Part shown: positions 1,256-2,487 of the stretch, piece after piece
Position numbering within the stretch: position 1 is the first letter of the stretch
Layout of the letters: each line of letters starts with the position of its first letter
DNA from: a virus
Lineage: Duplodnaviria > Heunggongvirae > Uroviricota > Caudoviricetes
Length of the DNA stretch: 36,067 nt
Reading direction: 5' to 3' (one strand)
Virus record (IMG/VR): IMGVR_UViG_2609460210_000005
Notes under the pieces: generated by a model
Seen by the model: only the letters and a program-made list of their open reading frames with translations
The model's database searches: none
Told to the model about the DNA's origin: nothing
Program-made: the position numbers and the translations under genes

Positions 1256-2150
1256 CTATTTCCAGTTACAAGCATCTTGAAGCGGTTTTAGTGCATTTGA
1301 CAGGCCGCTTAAATTGAAAGTTGCACTTACAGGGCTTTCATTATAGGGGGTTATTTTTGTGTACATTTTATGTGAGTTGGCAAGTTTTCTTATGAAATCA
1401 ATATCATTACCTTTATAAAAAACAGCCTTTGTATCTGTAGATATTAGCCAGTTTCTTTCAACTGCTTTCTGTTTATCAAGACGATACAGCATGCTGGTTT
1501 GTTCAAGGCCTAAATATACATCCCAACTAAGAAATACTTCGGTTTTCTTTTCTCGGCAAGCTATAAACAGAGTGGGAGTAACAGCTTCTCCAAATGGAGT
1601 TCTGATATAATCATCACTTTCTAACGATAAAATTACATTTTTCGAATCATCAATTGGCGATGTAGTAATGGACGTGTGCCATTTTCCTGCATCTGTGGCT
1701 TTCTCTAATTGTGATTCAGATTGAACAGCTTCATTCTGTGGGAATAGTTTATCGTAGCAGTTTAGTCTGGCTTCTTTATCATTTTCTGCTCGGCATTTAG
1801 ATATTTCAGAAAGATTTGGTTGCTGAGCCTCTGTTGTTACTAGCTTTTCCGTTTTAGATTTTGAGTTTACAGATGGAGTAAATGTTGGAGAAAAAAAACG
1901 ATCATAACAAGATAAACGTTTGTCATCATCTTTCTCATCAGGGCATTGATCCCTGCTTTCAAATTTTTCAGCAACTTTCGTTCGAGTCGGTTGTATTGAC
2001 TTATCGTAACAAGAAAGTCTGTCTTTATTGTTTTCTATCGCTCGGCACTGGAGCACTGCATTGAAATTCTTATGTTCAGTTGCTGCGTGAACAGGCAGTA
2101 CACTAATTGATATAAATAATGCACCTATAGAAAAAAATCATATTTTTCAT
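1256..2150 (-). CDS. Secreted hypothetical protein with three R-L-(S/N)-C-Y-D cysteine motifs; 5' end restored only by a 1-nt frameshift in an A7 run (2131-2137) that links an ATG at 2150 and a signal peptide (MKNMIFSIGALFISISVLPVHA/ATEH) to the 1256-2056 ORF
   Basis: ORF track 1256-2056 begins at an internal GTG; in-frame upstream codons encode the hydrophobic core and AHA-A cleavage site; ATG at 2150 lies in the -1 frame across the homopolymer. Confidence 0.5.
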
Positions 2151-2154
2151 TTTA

Positions 2155-2487
2155 TTATCCCTTTGGTTTAGTAAGAAACACTAAAATTCCGATAATTATA
2201 TCGCCAATAACCCATAAGCCTCCAATGGCAATTAAACCTAAGCCCGTACCAATAACTGCCCCAGCTTTTTCGGCATCGGATGTGGTATTGTTTATTATTT
2301 CATCAGCGCCTCCTAGTCCAACTAAAAGTGTATAGATCATAAAAATATTAAAAAATATAAAAGCCCATTTAATGAGTTTTCCAAAAAATGAACGCTTAAG
2401 TTTTTTCAGTTGTTTACCACAAGCAGGGCAACATAATGCTGAATCGCTGACCTCTTTCTGGCATTCAGGACATTTGATTAATGCCAT
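2155..2487 (-). CDS. Zinc-ribbon (CPEC...CPAC) membrane protein with C-terminal transmembrane helices, 110 aa; likely co-transcribed with the downstream secreted protein gene (stop at 2155, next start at 2150)
   Basis: N-terminal C-x2-C...C-x2-C motif followed by hydrophobic Gly-rich segments; tight gene spacing. Confidence 0.55.
   Translation of the reverse strand: MALIKCPECQKEVSDSALCCPACGKQLKKLKRSFFGKLIKWAFIFFNIFMIYTLLVGLGGADEIINNTTSDAEKAGAVIGTGLGLIAIGGLWVIGDIIIGILVFLTKPKG

What the first reader, a model, noticed from the sequence alone, without database searches (positions are those of the whole stretch)
1256..2487. Two-gene operon: zinc-ribbon membrane protein plus secreted protein with three R-L-x-C-Y-D motifs, interrupted at an A7 homopolymer
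The 110-aa CPEC/CPAC zinc-ribbon membrane protein ends at 2155 and an ATG at 2150 begins a signal peptide that continues into the 266-aa ORF only if one base is removed from the A7 run at 2131-2137. The mature protein has three spaced motifs (LQCRAIENNKDRLSCYDK, DQCPDEKDDDKRLSCYDRF, SKCRAENDKEARLNCYDKL) followed by a beta-rich domain. I cannot assign it to a family. The homopolymer break could be a consensus error, a pseudogene or a slipped-strand switch. The block is visibly AT-rich compared with the prophage.
Basis: seen in the sequence. Interest (0 to 1): 0.5.

Follow-up and report, generated by a model that had tools for sequence, protein, structure and literature searches.

The report
Phage-borne VasI/TagO operon, frameshift artefact
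The two genes are a real, already annotated cargo operon at the end of a P2-like prophage (a small zinc-ribbon membrane protein plus a secreted VasI/TagO-family protein of unknown function), and the break at the A7 run is almost certainly a homopolymer sequencing error.

Summary
The sequence is as described: a 110-aa zinc-ribbon, two-TM ORF (2155-2487, minus), then 4 nt later an ATG (2150) and signal peptide that join the 266-aa ORF (1256-2056) only if one base is removed from A7 (2131-2137).

The break is not credible biology. The window differs from E. coli Eco889 at 21 of 36,067 positions with no substitutions: 19 Ns, this extra A and one missing G. Many abut homopolymers, and the indels also break the sheath, tape-measure, portal and gpA genes. 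None of 130 complete E. coli genomes carrying the locus matches the A7 version.

It is not in a T6SS cluster. An att repeat (1098-1119) places the AT-rich block inside a P2-like prophage, between ogr and attR. The pair recurs there in Escherichia, Citrobacter, Klebsiella and Enterobacter phages, under purifying selection.

Function is unknown. Distant homologues sit among defence genes, so an envelope-acting exclusion or defence role is my best guess, at low confidence. The finding is ordinary, with a modest open question.

The parts
1098..1119 (.). attR core of the P2-like prophage (AAAATCCTTGTTGAGGAAAATA on the + strand). It sits between the TagO terminator and flk.
   Evidence: A 22-bp direct repeat (21/22 identical) also lies next to pdxB, beyond the integrase, in Eco889. 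Coordinates are. flk and pdxB flank the whole insert.
1207..1224 (-). Intrinsic-terminator-like hairpin (CGCCCGTGAAAACGGGCG followed by a T run) just after the TagO stop codon. It reads as a terminator in both directions.
   Evidence: Found by the scan. The two Ns at 1202 and 1225 are extra bases flanking it.
1256..2150 (-). Gene for the secreted VasI/TagO-family protein: 297 aa once one base of the run is removed. As written it is split into a 15-codon stub and the 266-aa ORF 1256-2056.
   Evidence: The intact 894-nt CDS WP_000794120.1 is present in Eco889. PF11319 matches at E 7e-26 over residues 118-296.
2131..2137 (.). A7 homopolymer (T7 on the coding strand). One base is surplus relative to every comparator examined.
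2084..2150 (-). Signal-peptide coding region (MKNMIFSIGALFISISVLPVHA|A after repair).
   Evidence: The basic residue, hydrophobic core and VHA-A cleavage site were judged by eye. Homologues have N-termini of the same type.
2003..2047 (-). Cys motif 1, CRAIENNKDRLSCYD.
1901..1945 (-). Cys motif 2, CPDEKDDDKRLSCYD.
1751..1795 (-). Cys motif 3, CRAENDKEARLNCYD. This is the ancestral copy: its C, R, L, C and D are invariant in all 41 aligned homologues, and it forms the first positions of the Pfam VasI profile.
1259..1699 (-). C-terminal beta-sandwich (VasI / IalB-like) domain with an invariant Cys pair (ORF C167 and C263).
2155..2487 (-). Gene for a 110-aa inner-membrane protein: an N-terminal CPxC...CPxC zinc ribbon followed by two hydrophobic segments.
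   Evidence: Pfam zinc-ribbon models match below their cut-offs. phrog_6586 matches at E 2e-38. RefSeq lists it as WP_001173924.1.
2542..2569 (-). Sigma-70-like promoter match (TTATCA, 16-nt spacer, TG-TAAAAT) about 55 nt upstream of the zinc-ribbon ATG.
   Evidence: This is a consensus match only; the region holds no more such matches than shuffled sequence does.

Best explanation
Window 1207-2569 (minus strand) is an intact-in-nature accessory ('moron') operon of a P2-like prophage (Peduoviridae). The prophage is integrated between flk and pdxB of E. coli, and the operon lies between ogr/hok and attR.

The operon encodes two proteins:
(i) a 110-aa inner-membrane protein with a cytoplasmic four-Cys zinc ribbon and two TM segments;
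(ii) a Sec-exported, probably disulfide-bonded periplasmic protein of the VasI/TagO family (PF11319). It has three N-terminal helical C-x8-RLxCYD hairpins on flexible linkers, then an IalB-like beta-sandwich.

The apparent interruption at A7 is a homopolymer-length error of a low-quality consensus. The true sequence is A6 and the gene is whole.

Shown:
- the family assignment;
- the prophage location;
- conservation of the gene pair and purifying selection on it;
- the artefactual pattern of the indels.

Inferred, at roughly 0.3-0.4 confidence: the pair works together at the cell envelope of the lysogen as a lysogenic-conversion module. It most likely protects the lysogen against incoming threats (superinfecting phage or another envelope attack) rather than serving as a part of a T6SS machine.
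For: Artefact:
- The window against Eco889 shows 21 differences in 36,067 bp and no substitutions: 19 Ns, one extra A (2131) and one missing G (7116). Nine Ns are surplus bases, eight of them abutting A/T runs.
- The same class of indel breaks the sheath, the E/E' gene, the tape-measure, portal and gpA genes of an otherwise identical prophage.
- 130 complete E. coli genomes hold the 81-bp stretch. None matches it at 99% or better, and all 60 sampled rows span 80 bases, which means A6.
- The run is T6 in the phage records and in 16 of 17 IMG/VR loci with this start. The one T5 record has five homopolymer indels in 7 kb.

Family:
- PF11319 scores 91.4 bits against a cut-off of 26.5.
- RefSeq names the protein TagO.
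- phrog_1848 and phrog_6586 match the two proteins.

Prophage cargo:
- An att repeat flanks the whole insert.
- The same ogr-hok-Zn-ribbon-TagO-attR order occurs in Escherichia phages 500465-2 and PhiR44_2. Klebsiella phage 3LV2017 has the pair directly after ogr, without hok and ending at its annotated attR, and TagO sits at the end of the Citrobacter phiSM record.
- 70 of 80 IMG/VR loci carry P2 markers and 67 of 80 carry the zinc-ribbon gene.

Functional constraint and linkage:
- dN/dS is 0.09-0.31 for both genes.
- The gap between the two genes is 4 nt.
- Two independent fusions join a zinc ribbon, a TM segment and a VasI domain: P0051/L011 and L030.

Defence-type role:
- Distant homologues lie beside GmrSD, a CARF/Cas_NE0113 protein, RecD2/TerB, MADS, Shango, Uzume, PARIS-like and BREX genes.
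- No T6SS family appeared among the 25 Pfam families listed for their flanking ORFs (168 families matched in all).
- A VasI-fold protein, SDIC4B, gives 10-200-fold phage protection (bioRxiv 10.1101/2024.01.28.577318).
- The region between a P2 tail gene and the CI repressor is a described accessory hotspot (bioRxiv 10.1101/2024.10.15.618418).
Against: - No reads are available, so a genuine +1 insertion in this one isolate cannot be formally excluded.
- PADLOC has no model for either protein, and no experiment addresses this clade.
- The 2026 review of T6SS accessory factors lists TagO/VasI function as 'Unknown' (PMC13584744).
- The defence-island association comes from a pattern-seeded sample of 25 loci. 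It has no formal background control.
- The large 2026 survey of P2 defence hotspots does not list the ogr-att end among them (PMC13586616).
- The promoter is only a consensus match.
Confidence: 0.8

Rival explanations
1. Genuine pseudogene: this isolate really carries a +1 insertion (A6 to A7). It truncates the exported protein to a 15-residue stub, and any product restarted at GTG 2056 would lack a signal peptide.
For: The sequence as given has A7 with no N at that position. Accessory prophage genes are often lost.
Against: There are no substitutions against Eco889 over 36 kb, while 11 single-base indels, nearly all at homopolymers, also disrupt essential phage genes. Mutational decay would not look like this. 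No other genome has A7.
Confidence: 0.07
2. Phase-variable contingency gene: slipped-strand mispairing at the A/T run switches the secreted protein on and off.
For: The homopolymer sits in the first codons of the gene. One other public record (L070) has a different run length, T5.
Against: A run of 6 is short for slippage. It is invariant in 130 complete genomes and in 16 of 17 IMG/VR loci. L070 has five homopolymer indels in 7 kb, so it is also a low-quality sequence. The run is not conserved in the Klebsiella or Enterobacter orthologues, whose N-terminal codons differ.
Confidence: 0.02
3. A true T6SS accessory subunit (TagO/VasI), supplied by the phage to build or tune the host's type VI secretion machine, as the RefSeq name and the C. 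rodentium prophage paper imply.
For: It belongs to PF11319. PMC6456863 lists the phiSM orthologue as a 'T6SS VasI family protein' and a virulence cargo gene.
Against: It scores 79.9 bits on the T6SS equivalog model TIGR03360, against a cut-off of 124.2. The T6SS-cluster VasI of EDL933 scores 257 bits and is only 26% identical. There are no T6SS genes nearby. Homologues sampled in 25 other genomes showed no T6SS family among the 25 listed Pfam families of their flanks. Even the role of VasI within T6SS is unknown (PMC13584744).
Confidence: 0.08
4. A host-interaction or virulence factor of the IalB type: a periplasmic or surface protein that promotes adhesion or invasion.
Against: The IalB hit is below the Pfam cut-off (19.4 against 22.1 bits). 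The biochemical role of IalB is itself undefined. Homologues occur widely in environmental, non-pathogenic bacteria.
Confidence: 0.05

Closest known systems
T6SS-associated protein VasI / TagO (Pfam PF11319; NCBIfam TIGR03360), e.g. V. cholerae VCA0118 and E. coli EDL933_RS01165
   Same: The domain is the same, with a full-length match to the Pfam profile. Both have a signal peptide, an N-terminal C-x8-RLxCYD motif, an internal Cys and a C-terminal C-x-W. Function is unknown in both.
   Different: This protein is encoded in a P2-like prophage, not a T6SS cluster. It is 26% identical to the E. coli T6SS copy and scores below the equivalog cut-off. It has three motif copies instead of one, and it is paired with a zinc-ribbon membrane protein.
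Invasion-associated locus B protein (IalB, PF06776; PDB 3dtd)
   Different: Identity is 17%, and the sequence hit falls below the Pfam cut-off. IalB lacks the N-terminal Cys hairpins.
SDIC4B, a VasI-like-fold anti-phage protein of Serratia defence islands (bioRxiv 10.1101/2024.01.28.577318)
   Same: It is a VasI-type fold found outside T6SS clusters, in mobile or defence contexts of Enterobacteria, within a small operon.
   Different: SDIC4B is reported to share no BLAST-detectable similarity with VasI, whereas this protein clearly does. SDIC4 is associated with BrxR, and none is present here. I could not obtain its sequence for a direct comparison.
P2-like phage accessory ('moron') loci such as old/tin and Z/fun
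   Same: It is AT-rich cargo inside the att-bounded prophage, with its own promoter-like and terminator-like signals. The content varies between related phages: RES is present or absent, the motif count is 1, 2 or 3, and the partner is a zinc-ribbon or a TM2 protein.
   Different: It sits at the ogr-attR end rather than at the two classical hotspots. No phenotype is known.

Membership tests
Pfam PF11319 VasI (VasI/EvfG/VC_A0118; called TagO by RefSeq) | Whole-protein score above the Pfam gathering cut-off, with full-length profile coverage. | tested here: met
   91.4 bits against a cut-off of 26.5, E 7e-26, profile positions 1-184 of 184 on residues 118-296. All 93 homologues but one carry PF11319.
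Pfam PF11319 VasI | Exported protein with the N-terminal C-x8-RLxCYD motif and the conserved C...C-x-W pair in the beta domain. | tested here: met
   Invariant columns are C88, R97, L98, C100, D102, C167, C263 and W265. The T6SS VasI of EDL933 has CRRESAALERLDCYD and ends ...ACHW.
NCBIfam TIGR03360 (equivalog: T6SS-associated protein VasI) | Score at or above the curated equivalog cut-off of 124.2 bits. | tested here: not met
   This protein scores 79.9 bits. Three relatives, the phage-borne P0070 and P0048 and a distant Pseudomonas homologue, score 36-57 bits. The T6SS-cluster VasI of EDL933 scores 257.4 bits.
T6SS accessory gene (Tag) | Encoded within or next to a T6SS gene cluster (tssA-M). 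| tested here: not met
   The neighbours are flk, attR, the zinc-ribbon gene, RES, hok, ogr and gpD. In EDL933 the true vasI lies between tssH and tssA.
IalB (PF06776) | Sequence score above the Pfam cut-off. | tested here: not met
P2-like prophage cargo (moron) | Lies between attL and attR of the prophage and is present in phage genome records. | tested here: met
   A 22-bp att repeat occurs at pdxB and between TagO and flk. The gene is present in Xuanwuvirus P884B11, phages 500465-2 and PhiR44_2, phiSM and 3LV2017. 70 of 80 IMG/VR loci carry P2 markers.
P2-like prophage cargo (moron) | Own promoter and terminator, and expression in the lysogen. | tested here: inconclusive
   There are consensus promoter and terminator matches. 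The number of promoter matches is not above the shuffled expectation, and no expression data were available.
Phase-variable contingency locus | Repeat-length polymorphism among closely related strains. | tested here: not met
   None of 130 complete genomes has A7 and 60 of 60 sampled rows have A6. 16 of 17 IMG/VR loci have T6, and the exception is an error-rich record.
Zinc-ribbon domain (PF13248 / PF13240) | Score above the Pfam cut-off, and four conserved Cys in two CxxC knuckles. | tested here: inconclusive
   Scores are 23.7 against 27 and 22.0 against 25 bits, both below cut-off. However, CPxC...CPxC is conserved in the Klebsiella, Enterobacter and E. coli orthologues, and phrog_6586 matches at E 2e-38.
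Known anti-phage defence systems (PADLOC-DB v2) | Match to a defence-protein model. | tested here: not met
   No hit at E 0.1 or better for TagO, the zinc-ribbon protein or the RES protein.
SDIC4 (VasI-like-fold defence system) | Homology to SDIC4A/B, and association with BrxR. | not testable with these tools
   Only locus tags are given in the preprint's supplement, so the sequences were not retrievable. The authors state that SDIC4B has no BLAST identity to VasI.

The most novel reading that the evidence does not exclude
The zinc-ribbon membrane protein and the VasI-fold periplasmic protein together form an uncharacterised, envelope-acting defence or superinfection-exclusion module. It would be carried at the ogr-attR end of many P2-like phages of Enterobacteriaceae. 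The number of disulfide hairpins (1, 2 or 3) and the membrane partner would be swapped by recombination. The wider non-T6SS branch of the VasI family would then be a defence-island family, and 'T6SS-associated' would be a misnomer for most of it.
Probability: 0.3. Interest if true: 0.55.

Novelty: already known. Interest (0 to 1): 0.22.

Why it matters
Mostly as a caution. The eye-catching feature, a gene split at a homopolymer, comes from a draft consensus with systematic homopolymer errors. It should not be read as a pseudogene or a phase switch.

The underlying genes are already annotated in RefSeq, in PHROGs and in one paper on prophage cargo.

What remains of interest:
- A distinct, well-conserved branch of the VasI/TagO family lives in P2-like phages and in defence-rich islands rather than in T6SS clusters.
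- It usually has a zinc-ribbon membrane partner, and the two are occasionally fused.
- Its function is unknown.

Testing this branch for phage exclusion would be cheap. A positive result would reassign a widely propagated 'type VI secretion' annotation.

Tried and rejected
- P0010, a database protein starting 'MLQC...' like the truncated ORF, first looked like a second frameshifted allele. Its contig has a scaffold gap of Ns there and a T6 run, so I rejected that.
- I expected distant homologues to lie in T6SS clusters. tblastn with P2 markers found no P2 genes in those loci. Pfam and PADLOC scans of 148 flanking ORFs showed integrases and defence genes, and no T6SS family among the 25 listed Pfam families.
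- A sequence search of the PDB gave only a chance hit to Tubby-related protein (E 0.02). The fold search was needed.
- PADLOC gave nothing for the three cargo proteins.
- I tried to obtain the SDIC4A/B sequences from the preprint's supplement, but only locus tags are given.
- The weak NCBIfam DrpB and Pfam YndJ hits of the zinc-ribbon protein fall on its TM segments and below cut-off. I treat them as compositional.
- I did not use the 1.84-billion-protein representative search. The family and its context were already clear, and the best-150 list would have been filled by ordinary VasI proteins.

Full report
**1. The observation**

On the minus strand, ORF 2155-2487 encodes a 110-aa protein (MALIKCPECQKEVSDSALCCPACGK...). 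It has two CxxC knuckles followed by two hydrophobic stretches, about residues 37-57 and 76-106.

Its stop codon (2157-2155) is followed 4 nt later by an ATG at 2150. As written, that frame reads MKNMIFFYRCIIYIN*. Deleting one base of the run at 2131-2137 (A7 on the + strand) gives a 297-aa protein. It starts with a typical Sec signal peptide (MKNMIFSIGALFISISVLPVHA|ATEH) and runs into the 266-aa ORF 1256-2056.

The three motifs are real. Their exact form is C-x8-[RK]LxCYD, at ORF residues 4-18, 38-52 and 88-102.

GC is 0.37-0.38 in 1001-4000, against 0.50-0.61 for most of the prophage.

**2. The frame break is an artefact**

The window contains 19 isolated Ns. I aligned it to the chromosome of E. 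coli Eco889 (NZ_CP015159). It matches over all 36,067 bases with 21 differences, and none is a base substitution:
- 19 Ns;
- one surplus A, at 2131;
- one missing G, at 7116.

Nine of the Ns are surplus bases, eight of which sit directly against A or T runs (NAAAAAAA, NTTTTTT). The other ten mostly stand for a G or C at the start of a short G/C run.

These single-base indels fall inside the tail sheath gene, which the window truncates to a 335-aa ORF against 394 aa in Eco889. They also fall inside the E/E' gene and the tape-measure, portal and replication (gpA) genes.

A prophage with no substitution in 36 kb but 11 single-base length differences, nearly all at homopolymers, is the signature of homopolymer-length miscalling. 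Mutation would not produce this pattern.

Independent checks agree:
- The 81-bp stretch 2094-2174 occurs in 130 of 5,426 complete E. coli genomes. None matches at 99% or better. All 60 rows sampled across the ranking span 80 bases in the record, one base fewer than the window's 81, and the gene is annotated there as TagO.
- The run is T6 on the coding strand in Eco889, in phages 500465-2 and PhiR44_2, and in a metagenomic scaffold.
- It is T6 in 16 of 17 IMG/VR loci that share this start.
- The one exception (L070, T5) has five A/T-homopolymer indels in 7 kb relative to a near-identical contig, two of them inside this gene. It is another error-rich draft.

I put the probability that A7 is a consensus error at about 0.9, a real strain-specific null allele at about 0.07, and a phase switch at about 0.02. 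Reads were not available to me.

**3. What the proteins are**

The repaired protein hits Pfam PF11319 (VasI; 91.4 bits, cut-off 26.5, E 7e-26). The match covers the whole profile on residues 118-296, so motif 3 forms the first positions of the family model. [quoted passage not shown] It also falls in phrog_1848, function unknown.

Invariant residues across the alignment are the C, R, L, C and D of motif 3, a second Cys pair (C167 and C263), and W126, D136 and D137. With the signal peptide, this points to a periplasmic protein with disulfides. That step is inference.

Homologues fall into three length classes with one (about 205-220 aa), two (about 247-250 aa) or three (about 294-298 aa) motif copies. 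The three-copy form looks like the two-copy N-terminus placed in front of a one-copy protein.

The upstream protein matches zinc-ribbon Pfam models just below their cut-offs. It matches phrog_6586 strongly at E 2e-38, function unknown. RefSeq calls it 'zinc ribbon domain-containing protein'.

**4. Where it sits**

In Eco889 the gene order is pdxB | int-C-cox ... gpA ... Q-P-O-N ... tail genes ... D-ogr-hok-RES-Zn-ribbon-TagO | flk.

A 22-bp direct repeat, TATTTTC[A/C]TCAACAAGGATTTT, lies next to pdxB and between TagO and flk (window 1098-1119). The AT-rich block is therefore inside the prophage, between ogr and attR.

TagO is present in deposited phage genomes:
- Xuanwuvirus P884B11, 99% identical;
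- Escherichia phages 500465-2 and PhiR44_2, and Citrobacter phiSM, 95%;
- Klebsiella phage 3LV2017 and relatives, 63%. In 3LV2017 the annotated attR follows the gene directly.

In 500465-2, PhiR44_2 and 3LV2017, the records whose neighbourhoods I read, the zinc-ribbon gene lies immediately upstream of TagO.

The two Escherichia phages have ogr-hok-Zn-ribbon-TagO without the RES gene, and 3LV2017 lacks both hok and RES. RES is therefore a further insertion, present in about 66 of the 130 E. coli genomes.

All motif classes that I sampled sit at the same ogr-att end of P2-like prophages, integrated at different chromosomal sites.

Of the 80 best IMG/VR viral contigs, out of 110 with a relative, 70 have P2 gpD, ogr, sheath or tube genes within 5 kb, and 67 have the zinc-ribbon gene.

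Both genes are under purifying selection, with dN/dS 0.09-0.31.

Two independent fusions link the partners:
- a Logan contig encodes zinc ribbon-TM-VasI as one 243-aa protein (P0051);
- a Desulfobulbaceae genome encodes TM-zinc ribbon-VasI as one 347-aa ORF (L030).

In the E. coli two-motif class, the neighbour is a different zinc-ribbon protein with a TM2 domain, on the opposite strand.

**5. Relation to T6SS**

The real T6SS-cluster VasI of E. coli EDL933 lies between tssH and tssA.
- It scores 257 bits on the equivalog model TIGR03360, whose cut-off is 124.
- It has one motif.
- It is 26% identical to the phage protein.

The phage clade scores 44-80 bits on that model, below the cut-off. 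No T6SS gene is nearby.

The protein is therefore a member of the VasI superfamily. It fails both tests for being the T6SS accessory protein: the equivalog score and the cluster context.

Even for the T6SS protein, the 2026 review lists the function as 'Unknown' (PMC13584744). The orthologue in C. rodentium phiSM has been noted as 'T6SS VasI family protein' cargo (PMC6456863).

**6. What it most likely does**

A scan of one genome per species found 37 loci. The Enterobacterales ones are again mostly P2-linked.

The 25 more distant ones are 49% identical or less and match the VasI domain only. Most of them encode a signal peptide and a single motif. They have no P2 markers.

Among 148 flanking ORFs taken from 21 of these loci:
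- the commonest Pfam family is phage integrase;
- no T6SS family appears among the 25 listed families, though 168 families matched in all, so single T6SS hits are not excluded;
- PADLOC models hit MADS (mad2, mad3, mad8), AriA, Shango (SngA, SngB), Uzume, CARF/Csx1, PDC-S35, BrxD and others.

Immediate neighbours include GmrSD (L045), Cas_NE0113 (L042) and RecD2 with TerB (L025).

A Serratia study showed that a VasI-fold protein outside T6SS clusters (SDIC4B) gives 10-200-fold phage protection. That protein is reported to lack BLAST similarity to VasI, so it is an analogy and not a family match.

P2-like phages are known carriers of defence cargo. A third accessory hotspot between a tail gene and CI has been described. 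The large 2026 survey does not list the ogr-att end among its defence hotspots.

My best guess, at probability 0.3-0.4, is an envelope-located module that protects the lysogen, with these features:
- the membrane protein has its zinc ribbon in the cytoplasm;
- the VasI-fold protein sits in the periplasm on a flexible, disulfide-stapled stalk;
- the module provides exclusion of superinfecting phage, or resistance to another envelope attack.

This is inference from context. PADLOC has no model for it, and the neighbourhood sample has no formal control.

**7. Verdict**

The operon is real, conserved and already annotated. The family is known, although its function is not. The interruption is a sequencing artefact.

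The leftover question is why a non-T6SS branch of the VasI family is fixed at the end of P2-like phages with a zinc-ribbon partner. It is modestly interesting and cheap to test.

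Noticed in passing
window 1202, 1225, 7116, 8168, 9011, 25831, 28142, 29725, 31759, 31778 (and the other Ns): The window has 19 isolated Ns and two unflagged 1-base indels relative to an otherwise identical genome, many at homopolymers. They split the tail sheath (ORF 6147-7154, 335 aa instead of 394), the E/E' gene, and the tape-measure, portal and gpA genes. Any ORF-level reading of this window needs that correction.
   Followed up: yes
window 3003-3836 (minus strand): A 277-aa RES-domain protein (PF08808, E 4.5e-12; 'RES family NAD+ phosphorylase' in RefSeq) is inserted between hok and the zinc-ribbon gene. 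It has no adjacent Xre-type antitoxin gene. It is present in about 66 of the 130 E. coli genomes with the locus and absent from the three phage records whose neighbourhoods I read. There is no PADLOC, PHROG or NCBIfam hit.
   Followed up: partly
window 4246-4386 (minus strand): A Hok/Gef-family toxin gene lies directly after ogr. It is conserved at this position in the E. coli-type phages (25 of 80 IMG/VR loci). No search was made for the antisense Sok-like RNA.
   Followed up: no
L011 6001-6732 (Logan SRR21707680 contig) and L030 7392-8435 (Desulfobulbaceae MAG): Single-polypeptide fusions of a zinc ribbon, a TM segment and a VasI domain. They suggest that the two proteins of the operon act as one transmembrane unit. 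Each rests on one assembly.
   Followed up: partly
L006-L008 6001-7126 (E. coli, prophage next to tamB): The two-motif VasI variant sits at the same ogr-att end but in the opposite orientation. It lies beside a different small protein that also starts with a zinc ribbon and carries a TM2 domain (PF05154).
   Followed up: partly
L045 8869-10905; L042 8609-9727; L025 4708-6867 and 11544-13826: Distant stand-alone VasI-family genes in Pseudomonas, Photobacterium and Shewanella lie next to GmrSD, a Cas_NE0113/CARF protein, a RecD2-like helicase and a TerB-N/TerB-C protein. In other loci the flanking ORFs hit MADS, Shango, Uzume, PARIS-like and BREX models.
   Followed up: partly
L070 4909-4925 and 5158 (IMGVR_UViG_2534681936_000021): Another public record carries a length variant (T5) at the same run, plus a second homopolymer indel inside the gene and three more within 7 kb. 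It appears to be the same kind of sequencing artefact in an independent draft.
   Followed up: yes
L002 33903-34756 (Eco889; corresponds to window about 4880-6121): In the Eco889 RefSeq annotation, gpD is called as a shortened 801-nt CDS with a small pseudogene fragment beside it. The window has a 413-aa ORF here, longer than the roughly 370-385-aa gpD of related phages. The start of gpD in this phage group may be mis-called, or there may be a further sequence problem.
   Followed up: no
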